Under the pieces are notes generated by a model. The model made no database searches and was not told the DNA's origin. It worked only from the letters and a program-made list of their open reading frames with translations. A program made the translations under genes and the position numbers. Positions 23,593-57,218 of a DNA stretch of 64,000 nucleotides are shown piece after piece. Location: the sequence record OR896822.1; one strand, 5' to 3'. Position 1 is the stretch's first letter, and each line of letters begins with the position of its first letter. This DNA comes from Salmonella phage vB_SenS-3.

Positions 23593-23769
23593 TTACTCTT
23601 TACCTCCTGCGATAATACCTAAGTTATACACGGCAAGCATATCACTAATGGTAGGATCTTGAGACTCAGAACACAGTTTAATAAACCCTTCTTCATCCCA
23701 TTGCTCTACATTGCCAAACATATCCACTTTTAGTACTACCTTATCAAGGGTAGGGGGTGCTATAATCAT
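23593..23769 (-). CDS. small hypothetical protein (58 aa)
   Basis: ORF MIIAPPTLDKVV...GIIAGGKE lying between the dUTPase stop and the bidirectional terminator; no convincing SD. Confidence 0.2.
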   Translation of the reverse strand: MIIAPPTLDKVVLKVDMFGNVEQWDEEGFIKLCSESQDPTISDMLAVYNLGIIAGGKE

Positions 23770-23831
23770 ATCATAGAAATTCGGGTGTTGATTAGCATCA
23801 ATCTCTATTTGATTAGGATCAACAAAATTAC

Positions 23832-24278
23832 TTACTTACTTCCTGAGCTTCCAAAGCCGCCTTCTCCACGATCAGTCTCCTCTAGTTCGTCAACGATTTC
23901 AAAATGATTAATTGAGTAGTGTGGTAGTACTACTAGCTGACAAAGTCTCTCGAAATTCTCTAGAGTTTGCATTTCAGAACCGTAGTTAAACAGGTTCATC
24001 TTAATAGTACCACGGTAGTCTGAGTCGATCACTCCTGCGGTATTTGCGATCATTAGTTTACGCTTACCTAAAGAGCTGCGAGGAACTACCAAACCAAACC
24101 AACCTCGCGGAATTTCCACCGCGACACCGGTGTCTATCATAAGGGATTTGCCTGGTGCAATAGCACGTAAATCTGCTGCAAGGTTAGTACCGAAGAATGC
24201 ACGCAGATCCATACCTGCAGCATCATCAGAACCAATCTTTGGCATGCAATCTGGATGGGTTAGTTTAATTTTAATCAT
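23832..24278 (-). CDS. dut: dUTP diphosphatase (dUTPase)
   Basis: 148 aa with dUTPase motifs AGMDL, RSSL, GVIDSDYRG and C-terminal GGFGSSG. Confidence 0.85.
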   Translation of the reverse strand: MIKIKLTHPDCMPKIGSDDAAGMDLRAFFGTNLAADLRAIAPGKSLMIDTGVAVEIPRGWFGLVVPRSSLGKRKLMIANTAGVIDSDYRGTIKMNLFNYGSEMQTLENFERLCQLVVLPHYSINHFEIVDELEETDRGEGGFGSSGSK

Positions 24279-48007: not shown

Positions 48008-48170
48008 ATTCTCCCTCCTTAATAAGGAACTCTTTCCATTCTGCTGTATCCTCATAGATAACGCAGAAATCATCACTCTTCCATGAGAAGTCATCAGTAG
48101 CAAATTCGAAACGGTAGCACCAACTACCGTCTGGCCATACTAAAAGATCACACATGCTTTTCTGGGACAT
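47988..48170 (-). CDS. small acidic protein (60 aa)
   Basis: ATG at 48170 with GGAGGG RBS; acidic C-terminus EGEYGEEDF. Confidence 0.3.
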   Translation of the reverse strand: MSQKSMCDLLVWPDGSWCYRFEFATDDFSWKSDDFCVIYEDTAEWKEFLIKEGEYGEEDF

Positions 48171-48999
48171 AAATATTTCCCTCCATAAAAGCTTCAACTT
48201 GATCAATAAAGTGTTTATTACCAAAAACTTCGGCAGCTCCAGCACGCCATACAGTAACACCACGTTTCTCATATTCAAGCTGTTCATCATAGCGAACTTG
48301 AGGGTTAACAACCATCATCTTAGTTCCACGACATACAGCAGGGAATAGTTCCCAGTTGAAGTCAATCACTTGGTTGCTACAACCTACTACAATAACCATA
48401 TCATTGCTAGTAAGTGTATCAAACAGGTTAATCTGACCCATATACCACGGAGCCGTCTCACCAAAGAATGTTACGTTTGGTTTTACCCATTCGTAATCTT
48501 CAGGAACAATTGCAGTGTATCCAACATCTTCGATGATTTGATTGCGACCCCGACGATAGATCACCTCTTTCAAGTACCCGTGAGCGTGAATGATTTCATC
48601 ACGAGGGATACCAGCACGTTCCAGAAGGTCATCAACGTTAGTAGTGAAGTTCTTCACGCTATCCGCACCATAACGCTGGAACCATTCTGCAATTCGCAGA
48701 TGGGCAATGTTAGGCTCAACAGTCTGTAATTCCTGACGACGCATGTTGTAGAACTCATGAGTCTTGAGATACAGATCGTTACCCTCTTCATCAATGCCAG
48801 GGAAACGAGCACTGAAGTAGTTAGGATCATCTTCACCACAGAAGCGACGGAAGCCAGCTTCAAAGTTAGGCAAGCTACATACTTCCTCTAGATCGTACTC
48901 ATCCCACAAAGATTTTCCACTAGCAGTATCAGTACGGAAAGCACGAACACCACTATCAACACTTAAACCAGCACCACTAACAATGATTAGTCTACGCAT
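48148..48999 (-). CDS. Sir2-family (sirtuin-like) NAD-dependent protein
   Basis: 283 aa; N-terminal Rossmann motif IIVSGAGLSVDSGVRAFR (cf. GAGIS..SGIP.FR); His-containing IIHAHGYL; C-terminal VVNPQ; no obvious zinc ribbon. Confidence 0.65.
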   Translation of the reverse strand: MRRLIIVSGAGLSVDSGVRAFRTDTASGKSLWDEYDLEEVCSLPNFEAGFRRFCGEDDPNYFSARFPGIDEEGNDLYLKTHEFYNMRRQELQTVEPNIAHLRIAEWFQRYGADSVKNFTTNVDDLLERAGIPRDEIIHAHGYLKEVIYRRGRNQIIEDVGYTAIVPEDYEWVKPNVTFFGETAPWYMGQINLFDTLTSNDMVIVVGCSNQVIDFNWELFPAVCRGTKMMVVNPQVRYDEQLEYEKRGVTVWRAGAAEVFGNKHFIDQVEAFMEGNIYVPEKHV

Positions 49000-49193
49000 T
49001 ATACGATTCCTTGCTTGAATCCTTCGATGATATTTTGGAGCAGAATTGCTTCTTCTGGGCGAACCTTCTCTTGCTTAATAAGCATATCCAAACCAGCAAT
49101 ACAGGTAGCTACTCCAGCATTATACCCAGCATTCCACTGCTCCATAAGCATATTTTCTAAATTACTTTTTAGATTCTGATTCAAGAAGTCCAT
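48999..49193 (-). CDS. small hypothetical protein
   Basis: ATG at 49193 (MDFLNQ...) with GGAGGA RBS; ORF track start 49277 lacks RBS. Confidence 0.35.
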   Translation of the reverse strand: MDFLNQNLKSNLENMLMEQWNAGYNAGVATCIAGLDMLIKQEKVRPEEAILLQNIIEGFKQGIV

Positions 49194-49365
49194 AAAGTTT
49201 TTCCTCCAATTCCATAATACGATTTTCGTAAGAAGCACGCAGCTTCTCGATGGACAAAGCACGAACTGTAACTTCATCTGAATTGATCGCTAGCTGAGCT
49301 AGATCTTCTGTTTCCATACGTCCGTTGTAAATTAAGCGATATTTAAGATGTTTTACGTTTTTCAT
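49162..49365 (-). CDS. small hypothetical protein
   Basis: 67 aa, ATG with TAAGGAAC RBS; overlaps next gene start by 32 nt. Confidence 0.35.
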   Translation of the reverse strand: MKNVKHLKYRLIYNGRMETEDLAQLAINSDEVTVRALSIEKLRASYENRIMELEEKLYGLLESESKK

Positions 49366-49374
49366 TCTTGTTCC

Positions 49375-49656
49375 TTAGTTCTGTACTGTAAATTCATTCT
49401 TATCACAGTGAGCATAATAATACCCATACATACGATAAATTTTCACAGCCTTAGTAGACCCCTTCGATTCTTCATAATCAATCCAGAGCCACTTGTCTTT
49501 ACCTACATAATGTACCCGAAACTTCTTAACTTTCTTATCATTCCATGTTGCAACAACACGACGATAATCAAATCCGCCCAACCAATCTAGAGCCTTACGT
49601 TCTTCACTAGGCTCTCCAAGATGGGAAACATCTACTTTCGGAAGCAATTCGCTCAT
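49375..49656 (-). CDS. hypothetical protein
   Basis: 93 aa; first gene downstream of a T5-type promoter; GAGGAG RBS. Confidence 0.45.
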   Translation of the reverse strand: MSELLPKVDVSHLGEPSEERKALDWLGGFDYRRVVATWNDKKVKKFRVHYVGKDKWLWIDYEESKGSTKAVKIYRMYGYYYAHCDKNEFTVQN

Positions 49657-49684
49657 AGCTTTCTCCTCTCAAATTTATAAATCA

Positions 49685-49713
49685 ATTATACATAAGTTTT
49701 AGCTCGAAAGCAA
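49685..49713 (-). promoter_or_regulatory. T5 early-type promoter
   Basis: Minus strand TTGCTT-17-TATAAT followed by TGATTTATAAATTTGAGAGGAG. Confidence 0.6.
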
Positions 49714-49747
49714 ATAAAATAAAAGCCAGGTCGACTAGCAACCTGGC
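49712..49747 (-). terminator. rho-independent terminator after nrdD (minus strand)
   Basis: Minus strand hairpin GCCAGGT-tgctagtcg-ACCTGGC followed by TTTTATTTTATTT. Confidence 0.65.
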
Positions 49748-49754
49748 TGATTCA

Positions 49755-51629
49755 TTATTTAGCGCGAATGTCTTGATGTTTCACTCGACCCATAACCTCA
49801 TGTTGTTTACCTGGGTTAAACGGACGAGCACCTGGATTTCCAAGATATCCACAAACTCGACGAGTTACCTCAAGAGTCTCAGGATCATGATTGCCACAAA
49901 TTGGGCATTTGAAACCATCCTCAGAAGCTATAGTTTCACCCAAGAACCCACATTCCCCACAAGAGTCTACTGGAGTATTAATACCGAAGTAATGAACTTT
50001 ACTTGCAGCATAGTTAATAACCCATTCCAGTGCATCAGGGAATCGTTTCATATCAGGCAATTCCACATAGGAAATGCACCCACCAGAAGCAATTGGGGTA
50101 AAGTTAGACTCATAATCGAACTTCACGTTCGGAGCAACCTTACGCTCCACATCAAGGTGATGAGAGTTAGTGTAATATCCTTTAACCAGAATATCTTCAT
50201 GCTCTGGGAAATACTCACGATCTAGACGACAGAAGCGATCACATAGAGATTCAGATGGTGTAGCATACAGACTATACCCTAATTGAGTCTCTTCCTTCTT
50301 CTGATCAGCACGATCACGCATGTATTGTAGCACACGTTGAACGAACTTGATACAGGATTCAGACATTGTATCTACATCTTTACCAAACATGAACTGTAAC
50401 ATTTCGTGGCAGCCAATATATCCTAGAGATACAGAAGCACGCTTGTAGAAATGATCAAATACATATTCATCTGGCCCCAGACGTAATCCAAAGGCTCCTG
50501 ACATATAGAGGATGGGCGCAGCTTTAGCTTGAATGTACTTTAAGCGATCAACCCTCCACTCCAATGCTTTTAACGCGGTATCCACACGCAGCTCAAGCAG
50601 ATCGAAGAATAGATCAATATTACCTTCCGCTTCGATAGCAATTCGAGGTAGGTTTACAGAAACAACGCCTAAGTTGTTACGACCAGAAGTTTCACCATCT
50701 TCCGCAGCAGCCAGGAATGAACGACAGCCCATAGAGACTTTGTAGTCTCCCGTAACTTCTACAACCTTATCATAACTGATGTAGTCAGGATACATACGTT
50801 CAGCAGTACATTTCATAGCTAACTTCTTGATATCATAGTTAACATCACCAGGTTTCATGTTTACGCCATCACGCAAAACAAATACCAGTTTAGGGAAGAT
50901 AGCTGTACGTTTATTGATACCCAAACCATCCATACGCACTTCTAGGATTGCTTTCTGTACAAGACGTGCTTCCCAAGAAGTTCCTAGACCAAACCCAAAG
51001 GTAATAAACGGACTTTGACCATTAGAGTTGAACATCGTATTGATTTCATACTCCAGGCCCTGACAGGCATCGTAAACTTCTTTCTCAGTCATTTCCGTAG
51101 CCATTACAGATGCTTTAGCTTCATCCTTAGTCCAACGCTTTGCAAACGCATGATTCTTATCATAAGACTTACGAACATAAGGAGCCAATACTTCATCTAA
51201 TCGGTCTACAGAAGTACCCCCATATTGATGTGAACTAACCTGAGTGATAATCTGAGCTGTGATAGCAGCCGCAGTAGTAATAGAGTTTGGTGTACTGATT
51301 TCAGCATTACCAACCTTCATACCATTCTTCAACATATCTTCCAAAGCAACCAGGCAACAGTTAGTCATACCTAACGCAGCGTAATCAGCATCATGGAAGT
51401 GAATATCACCAATCATGTGAGCATTTCGAATCTGGATTGGCATTTCTTCCAGAATCAGATGTTTACTCAATTCCCCTGCAAGCATGTCCCTTTGTGTAGG
51501 GAAACGTTCGCTTGGTTTGTTCGCATTATTAAAGAGTAGCTCTTCATCTGCTGATCCTTCGATAATTTCTTTGCAGTTTCGAATTAAGGACTGCACTCCT
51601 TTATACTTTAGTTCTTCATTGCGATTCAT
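49755..51629 (-). CDS. nrdD: anaerobic ribonucleoside-triphosphate reductase (class III)
   Basis: 624 aa; C-terminal glycyl-radical motif RVCGYLG; zinc ribbon CGECGF...CPICGN; GAAGGAGGG RBS. Confidence 0.85.
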   Translation of the reverse strand: MNRNEELKYKGVQSLIRNCKEIIEGSADEELLFNNANKPSERFPTQRDMLAGELSKHLILEEMPIQIRNAHMIGDIHFHDADYAALGMTNCCLVALEDMLKNGMKVGNAEISTPNSITTAAAITAQIITQVSSHQYGGTSVDRLDEVLAPYVRKSYDKNHAFAKRWTKDEAKASVMATEMTEKEVYDACQGLEYEINTMFNSNGQSPFITFGFGLGTSWEARLVQKAILEVRMDGLGINKRTAIFPKLVFVLRDGVNMKPGDVNYDIKKLAMKCTAERMYPDYISYDKVVEVTGDYKVSMGCRSFLAAAEDGETSGRNNLGVVSVNLPRIAIEAEGNIDLFFDLLELRVDTALKALEWRVDRLKYIQAKAAPILYMSGAFGLRLGPDEYVFDHFYKRASVSLGYIGCHEMLQFMFGKDVDTMSESCIKFVQRVLQYMRDRADQKKEETQLGYSLYATPSESLCDRFCRLDREYFPEHEDILVKGYYTNSHHLDVERKVAPNVKFDYESNFTPIASGGCISYVELPDMKRFPDALEWVINYAASKVHYFGINTPVDSCGECGFLGETIASEDGFKCPICGNHDPETLEVTRRVCGYLGNPGARPFNPGKQHEVMGRVKHQDIRAK

Positions 51630-51658
51630 TACACCCTCCTTCTCTAATTAAGACTACT

Positions 51659-51687
51659 ATTATAACTCATTCGAAGGCGGATGTCAA
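51659..51687 (-). promoter_or_regulatory. consensus sigma70 promoter for nrdD
   Basis: Minus strand TTGACA-17-TATAAT (perfect consensus hexamers). Confidence 0.7.
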
Positions 51688-51737
51688 CAATATTTTACCA
51701 TAAAGTTCTGTAACATGATCTGAGTCAAAAAATTTTA

Positions 51738-51766
51738 TTTGCCAACCTCTATTAAAAATAGTATAA
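51738..51766 (+). promoter_or_regulatory. sigma70 promoter (plus strand, divergent from nrdD promoter)
   Basis: TTGCCA-17-TATAAT. Confidence 0.5.
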
Positions 51767-51879
51767 TCACACGCCCGTGTACGCGATATAAAATGATTAT
51801 CTAGTACCATACATCTCCCAATAAAAGCAAGTAAATTTTTTATTTAAAAGCAATATCATGGGTTTATTTAAAATTATAC

Positions 51880-51908
51880 TTGCTTTTTGCTGTAAACCTT
51901 GTTATAAT
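51880..51908 (+). promoter_or_regulatory. T5 early-type promoter upstream of phoH
   Basis: TTGCTT-17-TATAAT followed by ATATTTGTAAGTTGAT. Confidence 0.6.
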
Positions 51909-51984
51909 ATATTTGTAAGTTGATAAACAAGATCTCTTTGTTGATCCTCTGTTAGAAGCGAAGTACACTATAGGAGTGTTATTT

Positions 51985-52737
51985 ATGGGAAAAGCACGTC
52001 AAAAAAGAGAGAACCGCAATGGTTCAAGAAAGCGTGGCAACAAGTATGATAGTAACGTAATTCAAGCAGATTTCTCTGGTGATTACGCCAATCCAGTTGC
52101 TAAATCCCTAGTTGGTAAAAACCGTGAGCAAAAATCATATATCAATATGATCAAGAACAACACAGTGACTGTTGGTATTGGTGAACCAGGTACTGGTAAA
52201 ACCTTTATTCCGTCCGTTCTTGCAGCTCAGGAACTCGTAGACATTCACTCAGATATTGAGCAAGTGATCCTCGTGCGTCCGAACGAACCTCTAGGTAAAT
52301 CTCTTGGTATGCTCCCAGGTGATCTGGCAGAAAAGCTAGAGCCTTGGTTGGAACCAATAGCCGATGGCATGAAATGGGCAATCGGTGATCACGCCTACAA
52401 AGGATATGTCGAACGTCAGAAAATTAAATTCCTGGCTATCGAACATGCCCGTGGCCGAACTTTCAACAACTCCTATGTAATTGTCGATGAAGCTCAGAAT
52501 ATCTCCGTTGAAGCAATGATCTGTCTCCTGACTCGTGTAGGACAAGATTGTCGTTTAATTATCTGTGGGGATATAGCGCAGAAAGACATCAAGGGTGATT
52601 CAGGTCTAGCACTTCTTATGGAAGTCTATGAGAAGTATGAAAACTCTCCTTTCTCTATGATCGAACTGATCGACAACGTTCGCTCACCAGAGTCTAAAGC
52701 ATTCTACGATATCTTTAAGGATATGGGGAAGGTGTAA
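51985..52737 (+). CDS. phoH: PhoH-like ATPase
   Basis: Walker A GEPGTGKT; Walker B YVIVDEAQN; ATG at 51985 with TAGGAG RBS (ORF track GTG 51976 sits within the RBS). Confidence 0.8.
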   Translation: MGKARQKRENRNGSRKRGNKYDSNVIQADFSGDYANPVAKSLVGKNREQKSYINMIKNNTVTVGIGEPGTGKTFIPSVLAAQELVDIHSDIEQVILVRPNEPLGKSLGMLPGDLAEKLEPWLEPIADGMKWAIGDHAYKGYVERQKIKFLAIEHARGRTFNNSYVIVDEAQNISVEAMICLLTRVGQDCRLIICGDIAQKDIKGDSGLALLMEVYEKYENSPFSMIELIDNVRSPESKAFYDIFKDMGKV

Positions 52738-52738
52738 T

Positions 52739-52981
52739 ATGGGAAACGTCGTACATCTGCACCGCAAAACTAAGATTCACCGTACTTCACTGAGTGCTGC
52801 TAATATGATTACACGTAAGGAAGGGGAAGAAAGTCCTAAGACTACCCTAGCGTGGAAAATTGTAGCCTCTAATCCAAATCGGCCTTTTAATTATAACGAA
52901 TTGAGTACTTCTATAGACATTCTTATGGCTAAGGAAATACGACAGAAACTAACTGATATGACCGATAAACTTAAATGGTAA
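52739..52981 (+). CDS. hypothetical protein
   Basis: 80-aa ORF between phoH and a terminator. Confidence 0.4.
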   Translation: MGNVVHLHRKTKIHRTSLSAANMITRKEGEESPKTTLAWKIVASNPNRPFNYNELSTSIDILMAKEIRQKLTDMTDKLKW

Positions 52982-52989
52982 GACAGACG

Positions 52990-53023
52990 AGCCTGGGTAT
53001 GAAAATATCCGGGCTCTTTTTAT
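52990..53023 (+). terminator. rho-independent terminator
   Basis: Hairpin GAGCCTGG-12 nt-CCGGGCTC followed by TTTTTAT. Confidence 0.6.
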
Positions 53024-53037
53024 CTGTAAAATTGTAC

Positions 53038-53066
53038 TTGCAAAATGACCCAAAACAAAGTAGAAT
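53038..53066 (+). promoter_or_regulatory. sigma70 promoter for nrdA
   Basis: TTGCAA-17-TAGAAT; overlaps the ORF-track N-terminal extension, supporting the later start. Confidence 0.55.
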
Positions 53067-53104
53067 ATTTCCTAAATCCTGATAACTACAAAAAGGAAAG
53101 CCAA

Positions 53105-55435
53105 ATGAGCCATCGCATCGAAAAAGTAATTAAACGTGACGGTACTGTTCAGGACTTTGCTCCTGAAAAACTCAATGATTGGGCTGCATGGGCATGTAAA
53201 GATACTGACGTAAGTTGGTCTGCCGTAGTTATGGCTGCCCTGAAAAATCTACCCAAAGGTGTTGTAGACTCCGATACACTCCAAGATGTGTTAATTAAAG
53301 CCGCTGAAGGTCTTATCAAAGACAACCCAGCATATGATACTGTAGCAAAGGAATTACGTCTTGCGCAGATGCGTAAACGCCTATATGATTCCTTTGAACC
53401 TCCTTCTCTGCGTTTCTTCCACGATCATATGATTCGTGTTGGCGCCTGGGAAGACATGAGTGCATGGATTAGCGATGATCAGTTTGATGCTCTGAATCAA
53501 GTTATTGATCATGATCGCGATCGTTTATTCACCAGTGGTGGACTGAAACAGTTCTTCGACAAGTATTCCCGTCGTAATATTGCAACTGGTGAAATTTATG
53601 AAACCCCGCAGTTTGCCTACATGGGTATGGCAATGGCGATGTTATCTCAACCTAACTGGACAATTCTCGATGCAATCGACCTCTACAACGCAATGTCACT
53701 CCATAAAATCAACGTGCCGACTCCACCTCTCGTGGGTCTTAGGAGCAGCGACCGCGGTTTTGCTTCTTGTTGTCTTGTTGATAGTACTGATACCCTCGAT
53801 TCAATCGACACAGCCGAGCACATCGTCTTCAAAATGGTCGCAGCCAGAGCGGGAATCGGGTATCATCTTGAAAGCCGATCAATTGCTGATCCGGTGCGAA
53901 ATGGGGCATTCCCGCATTCCGGAAAACTGCCATATTATCGACACATTGACCGATCAGTAAAAGCTAACACTCAGCAAACCCGTGGTGGTTCTGCTACTGT
54001 GTCTTACCCATACTTCGATCCTGAAATCATTCAGTTGATGCAGGTTAAGCAGCAACGTGCTACAGACGAGAATAAAATCGATAAGATGGATTACTCTCTG
54101 AGCTTTAACAACCTTCTGTTAAAACGTTACCTGAAAAATGAAGATATTACGCTAATGTCCTACTTCTACGCACCAGAAGTTCATGAAGCGTTTTATGGCG
54201 AAGATGAGGCTAAGTTTGAAGAAATCTACGTGGCAGCGGAGAAACGTGTGGCATCTCTTACAAAGATCGACCACGAAGGAAAAACAATTCCAGCAGCTCC
54301 TAGAATCTCTGCAAAAGAAATCCTAGATACTTGGTTACGTATCCGTATGGAAACAGGGCGTATGTATGCTCATCACATTGGTGAATCTAACCGTCATGGT
54401 AACTTCCTTGACCCGATTCGTATGACCAACCTTTGTGTTGAAATTACTCAGCCAACCCGTCCATTCCATCACATTACGGAGCTGTATAAGACCCAAGATC
54501 AGTTAGACGATATGCGTCCAGAAGATATTGGTGAAGTATCTCTGTGTAACTTAGGTGGTGTTGTACTAGGTCGTATGGAATCTCTGGCTGAATGGGAGAA
54601 AACTTGCTACATTCTTCTGAAATTCGTTGATACAATCATCGAGATTCAGGATTACCCATTCCCAACTATGGAGTACACGGCTAAGAAACGTCGTAACGTT
54701 GGTATTGGTCTGATGAACGCAGCAGGTGCAATGGCAGCAGAAGGTTTGGCTTACGAAGGTGTTGAAGCCCGTAACTGGATTCACCGTGAAGCTGAAAAGC
54801 TGTCCTACTTCCTACATAAAGCCTCTGTACGTCTGGCTAAAGAACAAGGTGCATGTGACTGGTTTAATCGTACTAAGCCTTCGCAAGGAACTCTGGTAAT
54901 CGACACGTACAAGAAAACTGTTGATGAACTGGTAACTGTAGGTCTAGAAATGGATTGGGAATCTCTGCGTGCAGATATTCTGAAATATGGTATGCGCAAC
55001 TCTGTTCTGACTGCTCAGATGCCAGGTGAAAGTTCCTCTGTACTGCTAGGTGTTACTAACTCTATCGAACCGCCCCGTAAGATCGTATCTATCAAGGGTA
55101 GTGCAGTGAATAAAGTAATTGCAATTGCTCCAGGTGCAACTGATTGGGATACATTAATGAGCTATAAACTGGCTTATGATGTAGATCGTATCGAGTGGAT
55201 CAAATGGGTAGCAACCATGCAGAAATTATTCAGCCAGTCTATCAGTACGAATATGTACTATGACTACACCAAGTTCGAGAATGAAATCATTCCCGGCCCA
55301 GTAGTAGTTCGTGACTTTATGACTGCTGTTAAGTACGGTTGGAAAACTTGGTACTACGCTAACTTCAACACTGAAAATGGTGGTGGAGCTGGTGAAGAAG
55401 CAGCAGGTTGTGCATCAGGTGGTTGTAACCTATAA
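53105..55435 (+). CDS. nrdA: ribonucleoside-diphosphate reductase alpha subunit (class Ia)
   Basis: ATP-cone start MSHRIEKVIKRDG; uninterrupted 776-aa frame; AAGGAAAG RBS; C-terminal Cys/Gly-rich tail. Confidence 0.85.
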   Translation: MSHRIEKVIKRDGTVQDFAPEKLNDWAAWACKDTDVSWSAVVMAALKNLPKGVVDSDTLQDVLIKAAEGLIKDNPAYDTVAKELRLAQMRKRLYDSFEPPSLRFFHDHMIRVGAWEDMSAWISDDQFDALNQVIDHDRDRLFTSGGLKQFFDKYSRRNIATGEIYETPQFAYMGMAMAMLSQPNWTILDAIDLYNAMSLHKINVPTPPLVGLRSSDRGFASCCLVDSTDTLDSIDTAEHIVFKMVAARAGIGYHLESRSIADPVRNGAFPHSGKLPYYRHIDRSVKANTQQTRGGSATVSYPYFDPEIIQLMQVKQQRATDENKIDKMDYSLSFNNLLLKRYLKNEDITLMSYFYAPEVHEAFYGEDEAKFEEIYVAAEKRVASLTKIDHEGKTIPAAPRISAKEILDTWLRIRMETGRMYAHHIGESNRHGNFLDPIRMTNLCVEITQPTRPFHHITELYKTQDQLDDMRPEDIGEVSLCNLGGVVLGRMESLAEWEKTCYILLKFVDTIIEIQDYPFPTMEYTAKKRRNVGIGLMNAAGAMAAEGLAYEGVEARNWIHREAEKLSYFLHKASVRLAKEQGACDWFNRTKPSQGTLVIDTYKKTVDELVTVGLEMDWESLRADILKYGMRNSVLTAQMPGESSSVLLGVTNSIEPPRKIVSIKGSAVNKVIAIAPGATDWDTLMSYKLAYDVDRIEWIKWVATMQKLFSQSISTNMYYDYTKFENEIIPGPVVVRDFMTAVKYGWKTWYYANFNTENGGGAGEEAAGCASGGCNL

Positions 55436-55444
55436 TAAAAACAA

Positions 55445-55470
55445 GGAGATCTTCGGGTCTCCTTTTTTCT
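55445..55470 (+). terminator. rho-independent terminator after nrdA
   Basis: Hairpin AGGAGATC-TTCG-GGTCTCCT followed by TTTTTT. Confidence 0.7.
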
Positions 55471-55482
55471 TTGAAATTTTAC

Positions 55483-55511
55483 TTGCTAATCTCTACCAGA
55501 TTTGCTATAAT
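55483..55511 (+). promoter_or_regulatory. T5 early-type promoter for nrdB
   Basis: TTGCTA-17-TATAAT with TG extension (TGCTATAAT). Confidence 0.65.
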
Positions 55512-55542
55512 ATTCCTGAAATAGTGAGAAAGAGGAAAATCA

Positions 55543-56688
55543 ATGACTACTTTACTAAACCTGAATTGGGATCATACTAACGCTGACCTTTTCCTGGGCG
55601 ATTCTCTTGGTATCGCAGATTACGTTCGTGTAGCACATCCTGAACTTGAGCGTCTAGCACTTCTGCAACGTTCTCAATTTTGGACTGAAACTGAAATCAG
55701 TCTGGAAGCTGATAAGAAACAATGGCCAAACCTCCCGCGTGATATCCAGGAAATTACTCTCCTGAACTTAGCATGGCAAACTCAAACAGATTCTTTCATT
55801 AGTCGTGCTCCTGAGGCAGCTATTATGCCACTTGTAAGCCGTCCTGAATTGGAAGGTATGCTCAAGCAGTGGAGCTACTTCGAAGATCTACATAGCCGTG
55901 CGTATAGTAACATTATTCGTAACGTTCTGACTGACCCAGCAGAATTTATTGATTCTGTAACTAAAAACCAAGAAGCATTTGCACGTATCGCAGATTCTGT
56001 TGAACTGTTTGATGAATTGTATCTGTTAGGTCAGTATTTCCTTGCAGTACGTGATCATCGTGGTGATAATACTTATCCAGAAACTGAGTTCCCTGAAGTT
56101 AAACGTGAAACTCAGGCTAAACTGTTAGACGCTTACTTTGCAATCTACGGTCTGGAAGCAATGCAGTTCTACGCATCCTTTGCATGTACCTTTGCTCTAG
56201 CAGAGAACGATATTCTGCAAGGTATTGCTAAGAACCTGCAATTAATCGCTAAAGATGAAGCTCTACATACTCAAATGTCTAAAGCTATCATCCAGATTAT
56301 GTTCCAGCAGTTTGATAAAGATCTGGTAGATGAAGCATTAGCTAAAGCACCAGCACAACTCCTAAAAACTCTGAAAACTGAGATTGAATGGGGCCACTTT
56401 ATCTTTAAAGGCCGCAGTCTGATTGGTTTGAACGCAGAATTGCTTGAAGAATACCTTTACTTTGTAGGACGTAACGCATTTATGCACATTGGTGTAGAAT
56501 GGCCAAGCCACTTACCTGTAATTACTAAGAACCCTATTCCGTGGATTATGAACTGGTTGGATACTACATCTTTACAACCTGCTCCACAAGAGATTCAGAT
56601 TGGTGCAGCGTACCGTGTAGGTCAAGTAACTGAAACCTCTGCTGATACTCTGAAAGATCTTGGCAACGAATTTGAGGATATGTTCTAA
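55543..56688 (+). CDS. nrdB: ribonucleoside-diphosphate reductase beta subunit
   Basis: 381 aa; di-iron ligand motifs (E..H pairs, e.g. DEALH) and size typical of NrdB; AGAGGAAA RBS. Confidence 0.85.
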   Translation: MTTLLNLNWDHTNADLFLGDSLGIADYVRVAHPELERLALLQRSQFWTETEISLEADKKQWPNLPRDIQEITLLNLAWQTQTDSFISRAPEAAIMPLVSRPELEGMLKQWSYFEDLHSRAYSNIIRNVLTDPAEFIDSVTKNQEAFARIADSVELFDELYLLGQYFLAVRDHRGDNTYPETEFPEVKRETQAKLLDAYFAIYGLEAMQFYASFACTFALAENDILQGIAKNLQLIAKDEALHTQMSKAIIQIMFQQFDKDLVDEALAKAPAQLLKTLKTEIEWGHFIFKGRSLIGLNAELLEEYLYFVGRNAFMHIGVEWPSHLPVITKNPIPWIMNWLDTTSLQPAPQEIQIGAAYRVGQVTETSADTLKDLGNEFEDMF

Positions 56689-57218
56689 TGATAGCAGCAA
56701 TCTATGCAACTGGGCCGAATGGGGAGTTCGGCCTCAATGGTAAGCTCCCCTGGGGTTCTTTCAAAGAAGAACTAGATATCTTCTATGCTACATTGGATTC
56801 TCTGGCACCTGACAATATTATTGTAGGAGCAGGAACTTGGTTAGCATTCCCTGAGACTCTGCAAAAAAGAATACTAGGAGATTCTGACCTATTTATTTAT
56901 GCAAATAGACCACTACCGAACTCTATAAGATCAGCTACACGCATAAGCAACATTGGATACCGTCTGCCTGATTTTCTCAAGGAAGAGGTAACTGTAGTAT
57001 TAGGGGGAGCAACTCTGCTTCTTGAAATGTATGTCAAAAATCATCTAGATATGGCGTATATCTCTACTGTTACTTCAGCCACACCATTATCTGCTGATGT
57101 ACATCTGCATCATCATATTACTTTAACTAATTCAATGGCAACTAGAATGGACTATGTGGCAGGACAGAATGCAGATAAAACGCTTTCATTCTTACAAGAA
57201 TTGGTGATATTTAAATGA
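56688..57218 (+). CDS. dihydrofolate reductase
   Basis: 176 aa; N-terminal [22 protein letters not shown] resembles DHFR N-terminus (MISLIAA...IGMENAMPW); start overlaps nrdB stop (TAATG); precedes thymidylate synthase. Confidence 0.7.

What the first reader, a model, noticed from the sequence alone, without database searches (positions are those of the whole stretch)
49755..51629. Anaerobic class III RNR (NrdD) without an adjacent NrdG activase, alongside aerobic NrdAB
The phage carries both aerobic (nrdA/nrdB at 53105-56688) and anaerobic (nrdD) ribonucleotide reductases, suggesting adaptation to infection in the anaerobic gut. No radical-SAM activase (CxxxCxxC) ORF is visible next to nrdD in this window, so activation may rely on host NrdG or an activase encoded elsewhere.
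Basis: partly seen in the sequence, partly recalled or inferred. Interest (0 to 1): 0.35.

Follow-up and report, generated by a model that had tools for sequence, protein, structure and literature searches.

The report
Phage NrdD lacking its own activase
This T5-like Salmonella phage carries an intact anaerobic ribonucleotide reductase gene but no activating enzyme, so it almost certainly borrows the host's; this is a known, family-wide trait of T5-like phages and not a new find.

Summary
Window 49755-51629 (- strand) encodes an intact 624-aa class III ribonucleotide reductase, NrdD. It passes NCBIfam equivalog cut-offs and keeps every catalytic, Zn-site and glycyl-radical residue. nrdA and nrdB lie at 53105-56688. 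No radical-SAM activase exists in the window.

The window is an Epseptimavirus (T5-like, Demerecviridae). The nrdD region is 100% identical to Salmonella phage polluks. The complete polluks genome has no NrdG by annotation, Cys-motif scan, tblastn/phmmer or a 7-sequence NrdG HMM. The HMM's positive control scored 5.6e-72. nrdG is also missing beside nrdD in T5 and in three diverged T5-like lineages.

nrdD is monocistronic: a perfect sigma-70 promoter, an RBS, and a terminator directly after the stop. It is under strong purifying selection (dN/dS 0.02 against T5).

Best explanation: pre-existing host NrdG installs the glycyl radical. This is inferred, not shown. The glycyl loop VTRRVCGYLG is identical to E. 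coli NrdD in all four T5-like lineages. It differs in all five enterobacterial phages that carry their own nrdG.

Phages with nrdD plus nrdAB but no nrdG were already described by Dwivedi et al. 2013, whose RNR analysis includes T5, EPS7 and SPC35. Verdict: real, ordinary, already known.

The parts
49755..51629 (-). nrdD, class III (anaerobic) ribonucleoside-triphosphate reductase, 624 aa, no ATP-cone
   Evidence: Pfam NRDD 1.4e-172 plus Gly_radical. NCBIfam NF006732 and TIGR02487 above cut-off. PDB T4 NrdD 4.4e-176. 97.4% aa identity to T5 NrdD, dN/dS 0.020.
49758..49985 (-). C-terminal Zn-ribbon plus glycyl-radical domain (residues 549-624): Cys557/560/575/578 and loop VTRRVCG594YLG; the presumed docking site for the activase
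   Evidence: Residues mapped from T4 C543/C546/C561/C564/G580. 65% identical to E. coli NrdD here, with the Gly loop identical. The Zn domain is conjectured to contact NrdG (PMC4493059).
50724..50726 (-). codon of Cys302, equivalent to T4 Cys290 (thiyl-radical cysteine on the finger loop); Cys91 and Asn319 are also conserved
   Evidence: Alignment mapping.
51659..51687 (-). nrdD promoter, TTGACA-17 nt-TATAAT (12 of 12 consensus matches)
   Evidence: Promoter scan and sequence read. T5 carries an annotated putative promoter at the same relative place.
51634..51643 (-). ribosome-binding site AGAAGGAGGG, 4 nt upstream of the nrdD ATG
   Evidence: Read directly from the sequence.
49724..49748 (-). 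intrinsic terminator-like hairpin (10-bp stem, 6 GC pairs, T tract) starting 7 nt after the nrdD stop; it makes nrdD monocistronic
   Evidence: Terminator scan.
49375..49656 (-). 93-aa ORF (PHROG 7953, unknown function) at the position where nrdG sits in E. coli and T4; not an activase
   Evidence: One Cys only. No Pfam or NCBIfam hit. NrdG HMM E about 0.9-1.6. Not conserved at this position in other T5-like phages.
51976..52737 (+). [quoted passage not shown]
   Evidence: Pfam PhoH 1.9e-61. The same arrangement is described for T5/EPS7/SPC35.
53105..55435 (+). nrdA, class Ia RNR large subunit with ATP-cone
   Evidence: Pfam Ribonuc_red_lgC 2e-118, lgN, ATP-cone. polluks annotation.
55543..56688 (+). 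nrdB, class Ia RNR small subunit
   Evidence: Pfam Ribonuc_red_sm 1.8e-35.

Best explanation
The gene is a functional, stand-alone phage nrdD that depends on the host's activase. Shown: it is expressed as its own unit, with a consensus sigma-70 promoter, a strong RBS and its own terminator. It keeps every residue needed for class III chemistry: Gly594 radical site, Cys302 thiyl site, Cys91, Asn319 and the four-Cys Zn site. It lacks the ATP-cone. It is under strong purifying selection. No activase is encoded in the window or in the complete genome of its nearest relative. Inferred: in an anaerobically growing Salmonella or E. coli cell the host nrdDG operon is already on. Host NrdG ([4Fe-4S], S-adenosylmethionine, reduced by host flavodoxin) survives the phage's shut-off of host expression. 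Because it acts catalytically, it abstracts the hydrogen from Gly594 of the phage NrdD. The activated enzyme then reduces NTPs, presumably with formate as reductant as in the T4 and E. coli enzymes. Without an ATP-cone it would escape dATP feedback. In air the phage NrdAB pair does the same job. T5-type phages encode a 5'-deoxynucleotidase (dmp) annotated as degrading 5'-deoxyribonucleotides. From general T5 biology they are thought not to recycle host DNA, so they would need de novo dNTP synthesis under both conditions.
For: NrdD identity and intactness. Purifying selection: window versus T5 gives dS 0.70, dN 0.014, dN/dS 0.020; four T5-like lineages at 60-72% aa identity keep all key residues. 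Monocistronic unit. No activase: the window has a single CxxxCxxC, in a short unannotated stop-to-stop frame. polluks has six CxxxCxxC hits; by position five lie in frames that are not annotated genes, and the sixth is polluks_126. tblastn/phmmer with E. coli NrdG give noise only. The NrdG HMM gives a best of 9 bits against 234 bits for the control Vibrio phage GRLPWR. No nrdG is annotated in polluks. The sampled parts of T5, Proteus, Klebsiella and Salmonella 2-3 T5-like phages have none. Compatibility with the host enzyme: the loop VTRRVCGYLG is identical to E. coli NrdD in all four orphan lineages and altered in T4, JES2013, AV125, UE-S1 and tootiki, which carry their own nrdG. Precedent: phage T4's small glycyl-radical protein Y06I receives its radical from the PFL activase PFL-AE, and I found no PflA-type activase annotated in T4 (PMC8683613). 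T5-like genomes also carry a second orphan glycyl-radical protein, GrcA-like, 74% identical to E. coli GrcA over 74 aa with an identical loop, again without an activase.
Against: Nothing here shows activation directly. From memory, not checked in the library, early work on T4 (Young, Ohman and Sjoberg 1994) found that T4 NrdD expressed in E. coli needed T4 gene 55.9 (nrdG). Cross-activation by host NrdG therefore cannot be taken for granted. The C-terminal domain being more host-like than the core is not specific to orphan NrdDs. The C-terminal/core identity ratio is 1.18-1.22 in T5-likes but also 1.23-1.35 in four phages with their own nrdG. The four T5-like lineages share ancestry, so the loop pattern is not four independent observations. 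Vibrio-infecting Demerecviridae do carry nrdG, so dependence on the host is not a rule for the family. The remainder of this phage's own genome was not available.
Confidence: 0.75

Rival explanations
1. The phage NrdD is activated by a different host glycyl-radical activase, such as PflA (abundant in anaerobic enterobacteria), rather than by NrdG.
For: The same genomes carry a GrcA-like protein whose loop TIRVSGYAVRFN is identical to the PflA substrate GrcA. PflA would therefore already be exploited by these phages. NrdG and PflA are related activases; the control NrdG hits the PFLA model at 2.4e-11.
Against: The NrdD loop is RVCGYLG, the NrdG-type substrate, identical to host NrdD and not to PFL/GrcA (RVSGYAV). 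From established E. coli genetics (recalled, not checked here), nrdG mutants cannot grow strictly anaerobically. This implies that PflA does not substitute for NrdG.
Confidence: 0.07
2. A phage-encoded, non-canonical activase or accessory factor does the job. The candidate is the small Cys-rich T5.055/polluks_126 family, encoded directly downstream of the GrcA-like gene and outside the window.
For: polluks_126 contains C41-x3-C45-x2-C48-G-N, which resembles the activase cluster motif. It is the only annotated ORF in the genome with CxxxCxxC. The family is conserved in T5-like phages and sits next to a glycyl-radical protein gene.
Against: The proteins are only about 55-104 aa. The apparent SAM-motif look-alike GITFTGG lies in a variable region absent from most members. 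hhalign against NrdG gives probability 0.05%. There is no Pfam, NCBIfam or PHROG function. The AlphaFold model is low-confidence (pLDDT 52) and helical, not a radical-SAM alpha/beta fold.
Confidence: 0.04
3. This particular phage does carry nrdG, in the part of its genome outside the 64-kb window.
For: The window is a mosaic not exactly present in the phage collection; indels shift its offset relative to polluks. Its accessory gene content could therefore differ.
Against: polluks (100% identical at nrdD) has none over 111.6 kb. At most 126 Salmonella-phage records in the whole collection hit NrdG, against 278 or more Salmonella T5-like records. Published surveys report phages with nrdD and nrdAB but no nrdG.
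Confidence: 0.03
4. The orphan nrdD is a decaying relic, or serves a role that does not need the glycyl radical.
For: There is no cognate activase.
Against: dN/dS is 0.020 against T5. The full-length ORF and all radical, thiyl and Zn residues are kept across lineages 60-72% identical. The gene has a perfect promoter, an RBS and a terminator.
Confidence: 0.03

Closest known systems
nrdD of phage T5, EPS7 and SPC35 ('Enterobacteria phage cluster 4' of Dwivedi et al. 2013, PMC3653736)
   Same: Same gene: 97.4% aa identity to T5 NrdD. Same layout: nrdD divergent from phoH-nrdA-nrdB. No nrdG was found next to nrdD or in the first 50 kb of T5. [quoted passage not shown]
   Different: Nothing of substance. 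Small downstream ORFs vary between lineages: the 93-aa ORF here, a 126-aa ORF in T5, and Sir2 directly downstream in the Klebsiella phage.
Phage T4 NrdD/NrdG (solved structures 1H78, 1HK8)
   Same: Class III RNR of about 600 aa without an ATP-cone. 50% identity with all catalytic residues aligned. It coexists with NrdAB.
   Different: T4 encodes its own activase nrdG downstream of nrdD, separated by mobC. Its Gly loop is TIRRTCGYLG and its C-terminal domain is only 48% identical to E. coli's.
Host E. coli/Salmonella NrdD-NrdG operon
   Same: 53% identity overall and 65% in the C-terminal domain. The Gly loop VTRRVCGYLG is identical.
   Different: The host enzyme is 712 aa; the phage protein is 88 aa shorter and aligns to the NCBIfam NrdD model only from position 88, which corresponds to the host's N-terminal ATP-cone region (general knowledge). 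The host is co-transcribed with nrdG, whereas the phage gene is monocistronic with a constitutive-looking consensus promoter.
Phage T4 Y06I / E. coli GrcA (YfiD) spare-part glycyl-radical proteins
   Same: A phage-encoded glycyl-radical protein that receives its radical from the PFL activase (PMC8683613). T5-like phages encode a GrcA-like protein too.
   Different: It is a different substrate family (PFL-type loop) with a different activase (PflA). It lies outside the window.
Aeromonas T4-like phages of the Aeh1 group (nrdBAD arrangement)
   Same: Another phage group reported with nrdD plus nrdAB and no nrdG.
   Different: Unrelated phage family and host. Not examined here.

Membership tests
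Class III ribonucleotide reductase catalytic subunit (NrdD) | Full-length match to curated NrdD models above their cut-offs | tested here: met
   NF006732 840.7 bits (cut-off 657); TIGR02487 587.4 bits (cut-off 326.35); Pfam NRDD 575.7 bits.
Class III ribonucleotide reductase catalytic subunit (NrdD) | C-terminal glycyl-radical motif RVxGY with the radical glycine | tested here: met
   RRVCG594YLG aligns with T4 G580. Pfam Gly_radical 9.6e-23.
Class III ribonucleotide reductase catalytic subunit (NrdD) | Active-site cysteines and asparagine (T4 C79, C290, N311) | tested here: met
   Window C91, C302 and N319 are conserved in all 11 aligned sequences.
Class III ribonucleotide reductase catalytic subunit (NrdD) | Four-cysteine Zn site in the C-terminal domain (T4 C543, C546, C561, C564) | tested here: met
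   Window C557, C560, C575 and C578.
Class III ribonucleotide reductase catalytic subunit (NrdD) | Oxygen-sensitive NTP reduction after activation | not testable with these tools
   Needs enzyme assay and EPR.
Complete class III system (NrdD plus cognate NrdG encoded together) | A radical-SAM activase gene (CxxxCxxC cluster, NrdG HMM match) in the same genome, usually adjacent to nrdD | tested here: not met
   None in the window. None in the complete polluks genome. None next to nrdD in four other T5-like phages. The control NrdG in Vibrio phage GRLPWR was found at 5.6e-72.
NrdG-type glycyl-radical activase (candidate: 93-aa ORF 49375-49656) | CxxxCxxC cluster and similarity to the NrdG profile | tested here: not met
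   One Cys only. phmmer E 0.042 falls to HMM E 0.9-1.6. No family hits.
NrdG-type glycyl-radical activase (candidate: T5.055/polluks_126 family, outside the window) | Conserved Cys cluster plus SAM-binding GGE/GGD motif, about 150 aa alpha/beta core, profile similarity to NrdG | tested here: not met
   The Cys cluster is conserved but the GG motif is not. hhalign probability 0.05%. The proteins are about 55-104 aa. The model has pLDDT 52 and is helical.
Phages with orphan nrdD plus nrdAB (Dwivedi et al. 2013) | nrdD present, nrdA and nrdB present, nrdG absent; in the T5 group phoH lies between class III and class I genes | tested here: met
   for the genes. for the absence. for the published description.

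The most novel reading that the evidence does not exclude
T5-like phages are not simply passive users of host NrdG. On this reading they encode a non-homologous helper for glycyl-radical activation. The candidate is the conserved Cys-rich T5.055/polluks_126 protein that sits directly downstream of the phage GrcA-like gene. It would steer or supply a host activase for the two orphan phage glycyl-radical proteins, NrdD and GrcA-like. My tests exclude homology to NrdG but cannot exclude an unrelated accessory role.
Probability: 0.04. Interest if true: 0.55.

Novelty: already known. Interest (0 to 1): 0.15.

Why it matters
It matters modestly. If the inference holds, host nrdG is a conditionally essential host factor for T5-like phages under anoxia, the condition that prevails in the gut where Salmonella and E. 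coli phage therapy is meant to work. The activase is then a possible point of failure or of host resistance. It is also a clean example of a virus keeping the catalytic part of a two-component radical enzyme and outsourcing the maturation step. The gene content itself has been in the literature since at least 2013. What is missing is the experiment, not the observation.

Tried and rejected
1. The 93-aa ORF directly downstream of nrdD as a decayed nrdG. This was prompted by a 22-aa tblastn match (E 0.2) and phmmer E 0.042. It was rejected: with a 7-sequence NrdG HMM the hit drops to E about 1. The ORF has one Cys and no family hit. It is replaced by unrelated ORFs or by Sir2 in other T5-likes.

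2. polluks_126/T5.055 as a mini radical-SAM activase, prompted by CICSCWMCGN plus GITFTGG. It was rejected by family alignment, hhalign and structure prediction. I did not run a fold search because the model is too poor.

3. Testing whether orphan NrdDs have a specially host-like C-terminal domain. The C-terminal/core identity ratio is above 1 in most phages whether or not they own nrdG, so it does not discriminate. Ranking phage NrdD C-termini against E. coli's puts T5-likes (64-66%) above T4-likes (47-49%) but only just above Vequintaviruses (60%), which have nrdG. Only the exact Gly-loop identity separates the two groups.

4. An FNR box at the nrdD promoter, which would imply anaerobic control. 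There is only a 2-mismatch site at 51715-51728, at a chance-level density (80 found against about 59 expected in the window), and the promoter is already a perfect consensus.

5. An FNR box upstream of nrdD in Vibrio phage GRLPWR. The palindrome coincides with the -35 element of a TTGATC-17-TATAAT promoter, so it is not convincing.

6. GRLPWR gp79 first taken for NrdD. It is only about 22% identical and is not NrdD; gp76 is the NrdD.

7. Literature on who activates T5-type NrdD, or on cross-activation between host NrdG and phage NrdD. Nothing was found in the searchable library. Torrents et al. 2001 is not held.

8. The remaining 72 kb of T5 was not fetched, so the T5-wide absence of nrdG rests on the published survey plus the first 50 kb and the nrdD neighbourhood.

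Full report
**What is there**

The ORF at 49755..51629 on the - strand encodes a 624-aa protein. It is an unambiguous class III ribonucleotide reductase.
- Pfam: NRDD 1.4e-172 and Gly_radical 9.6e-23.
- NCBIfam equivalogs: NF006732 at 840.7 bits (cut-off 657) and TIGR02487 at 587 bits (cut-off 326).
- PHROG 487, NrdD-like.
- Solved structures: T4 NrdD at 4.4e-176 and a 734-aa bacterial NrdD at 2.3e-188.

Every residue that defines the chemistry in T4 NrdD is present when mapped through an 11-sequence alignment.

| T4 NrdD residue | Window NrdD residue |
|---|---|
| C79 | C91 |
| C290 | C302 |
| N311 | N319 |
| C543, C546, C561, C564 (Zn site) | C557, C560, C575, C578 |
| G580 (radical site) | G594 |

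The protein aligns to the NCBIfam NrdD model only from position 88 and is 88 aa shorter than E. coli NrdD. It therefore lacks the N-terminal ATP-cone, as T4 NrdD does. nrdA (53105..55435, with ATP-cone) and nrdB (55543..56688) are confirmed. So are phoH, a Sir2-like gene, DHFR (only a weak sub-threshold Pfam DHFR_1 match, 19.6 bits against a cut-off of 25, plus the polluks annotation) and thymidylate synthase.

**Where the window comes from**

Window 49000-57000 is 100.0% identical to Salmonella phage polluks (MT074456.1). This is an Epseptimavirus in Markadamsvirinae, Demerecviridae, that is, a T5-like phage. More than 500 related records exist. The whole window is a mosaic relative of several Epseptimaviruses and is not itself in the collection; its offset to polluks shifts through indels. 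Questions about the rest of the genome could therefore only be asked of near-identical complete genomes.

**Is there an activase?**

In the window:
- There is a single CxxxCxxC, in a 64-codon stop-to-stop frame.
- tblastn with E. coli NrdG gives nothing better than E 0.2.
- An HMM built from seven diverse NrdG proteins gives a best of E 0.6. The seven are from E. coli, T4, and Enterococcus, Fusobacterium, Lactococcus, Vibrio and Felix-O1-like phages.

In the complete 111,599-bp polluks genome:
- No nrdG is annotated.
- The HMM gives a best of 9 bits at E 0.07, in a frame opposite a real gene.
- The same HMM scores 234 bits (5.6e-72) on its control, the NrdG of Vibrio phage GRLPWR.
- The only annotated ORF with CxxxCxxC is polluks_126, discussed below.

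In relatives, nrdG is also absent beside nrdD in T5 itself. The same is true of a Proteus Novosibvirus, a Klebsiella T5-like phage and Salmonella phage 2-3, whose NrdDs are 60-72% identical to this one.

At collection level, E. coli NrdG finds homologues down to 31% identity in 2,273 phage records. Only 126 of these are Salmonella phages, whereas at least 278 Salmonella phage records are T5-like.

**Anatomy of the gene**

nrdD is its own transcription unit.
- Promoter: a perfect TTGACA-17-TATAAT at 51687..51659.
- RBS: AGAAGGAGGG 4 nt before the ATG.
- Terminator: a 10-bp GC-rich hairpin with a T tract at 49748..49724, beginning 7 nt after the stop codon.

There is no operon partner. I found no credible FNR box at the promoter.

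**Is the gene in use?**

Against T5 nrdD the synonymous divergence is 0.70 and the non-synonymous divergence 0.014. That gives dN/dS 0.020 at 97.4% amino-acid identity. The deeper T5-like lineages retain full length and all key residues. This is not a relic.

**How it most likely works**

A class III reductase is inert until a radical-SAM activase removes a hydrogen from the C-terminal glycine (PMC4493059, PMC3267527). With no phage activase, the simplest source is the host's NrdG. NrdG is encoded with nrdD in E. coli and, from general knowledge, is induced under anoxia.

Three things support compatibility.
- The decapeptide around the radical glycine, VTRRVCGYLG, is identical to E. coli NrdD in all four T5-like lineages. 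It is altered in every enterobacterial phage examined that owns an nrdG, as tabulated below.
- The C-terminal Zn/glycyl domain, conjectured to dock NrdG, is 63-65% identical to the host's, against 48% for T4.
- There is a documented precedent for a phage glycyl-radical protein being matured by a bacterial activase: T4 Y06I by PFL-AE (PMC8683613).

| Phage with its own nrdG | Gly loop |
|---|---|
| T4 | TIRRTCGYLG |
| JES2013 | VIRRVSGYLS |
| AV125 | VVRRVSGYLS |
| UE-S1 | VIRRVSGYLS |
| tootiki | VINRVCGYLG |

T5-like genomes themselves carry a GrcA-like gene, T5.056/polluks_125. It is 74% identical to E. coli GrcA over 74 aa with an identical loop, again with no activase.

All of this is inference. 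No experiment on T5-type NrdD activation turned up in the library.

**Cautions**

- The 'C-terminus more host-like than the core' signal is not specific. The ratio is 1.18-1.22 in T5-likes but 1.23-1.35 in four phages with their own nrdG, so I do not lean on it.
- The four orphan lineages are related, so the loop pattern is suggestive rather than statistical.
- From memory only, T4 NrdD was reported to need T4's own nrdG when expressed in E. coli. That warns that cross-activation is not automatic.
- Vibrio-infecting Demerecviridae (Thalassavirus GRLPWR) carry an nrdG 58% identical to E. coli's, and an ATP-cone-bearing NrdD of 724 aa that is no closer to the T5-type protein (53%) than E. coli's is. 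The family therefore shows both solutions.

**Leads followed and dropped**

- The 93-aa ORF just downstream of nrdD gave a weak match to the middle of NrdG, but this dissolves with a profile.
- polluks_126/T5.055 looked like the N-terminal half of an activase in one sequence. In the family alignment only the Cys cluster (TPCxCSCWMCGNPRKYY) and a basic N-terminus are conserved. hhalign against NrdG gives 0.05% probability, and the predicted structure is poor and helical.

**Comparison with what is known, and verdict**

Dwivedi et al. [quoted passage not shown] RNRdb in 2009 listed 30 phage NrdD against 21 NrdG.

The window's gene is that same T5-cluster gene. The finding is real and correctly read, but it is a textbook-level feature of a well-sampled phage family. 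What remains open is only the experimental proof of which host enzyme activates it.

Noticed in passing
window 23788-23801 and 23809-23822: Two perfect matches to the FNR consensus TTGAT-N4-ATCAA (TTGATTAGCATCAA, TTGATTAGGATCAA) with centres 21 bp apart. They lie in the 62-bp gap between the dUTPase gene (23832..24278 -) and a 58-aa ORF (23593..23769 -). They are the only zero-mismatch sites in the window and in the whole polluks genome. This may be a tandem operator for host FNR or another regulator. The tandem pattern occurs in only 13 IMG/VR contigs (one of them T5-like), and the full intergenic stretch is shared by about 95 phage records.
   Followed up: partly
L002 43294-44043 (MT074456.1 93294-94043; outside the window); T5 L020 27263-28024: T5-like phages carry a GrcA/YfiD-like autonomous glycyl-radical protein. 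GenBank annotates it as 'pyruvate formate lyase' or 'acetyltransferase-related'. It is followed directly by a conserved Cys-rich protein of about 55-104 aa, of unknown function and restricted to T5-like phages (RALRRHHRxR...TPCxCSCWMCGNPRKYY).
   Followed up: yes
L007 4521-7197 (Salmonella phage 2-3): Within the same genus, phage 2-3 has an nrdD allele only 60% identical in protein to this one and 71% identical to the Klebsiella T5-like allele. An 'endonuclease' gene abuts its 5' end. This looks like allele replacement, possibly driven by a homing endonuclease.
   Followed up: no
L014 3880-9480 (Vibrio phage GRLPWR, Demerecviridae, Ermolyevavirinae): Vibrio-infecting relatives of T5 do encode an NrdG (gp80, NCBIfam NF008335 240.8 bits) and a 724-aa NrdD (gp76). 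All genes in this cluster are annotated only as hypothetical proteins.
   Followed up: partly
L017 951-4124 (Escherichia jumbo phage UE-S1, Asteriusvirus): nrdD, a GrcA-like gene, a hypothetical gene and nrdG sit in one cluster. In that phage the spare-part glycyl-radical protein is physically linked to the class III RNR system.
   Followed up: no
window 52739-52981 (+): The 80-aa protein between phoH and nrdA matches Pfam DUF7430 (9.7e-40). PHROGs and several GenBank records call it 'tail length tape measure protein', which is implausible for an 80-aa early-region protein.
   Followed up: no
window 1-64000 versus MT074456.1: The window is collinear with polluks, but the offset changes along it (13296, 13499, 14029, 13566, 13233). 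Different segments are closest to different phages (vaffelhjerte 99.9% for 1-25000; atrejo/Sw2 96-97% for 39001-64000). The source is therefore a mosaic not present in the collection.
   Followed up: partly
window 48148-48999 (-): A Sir2-family gene lies close downstream of nrdD in this phage, in T5 and in the Klebsiella T5-like phage, where it is directly adjacent. polluks also encodes NMN adenylyltransferase and PnuC elsewhere.
   Followed up: no
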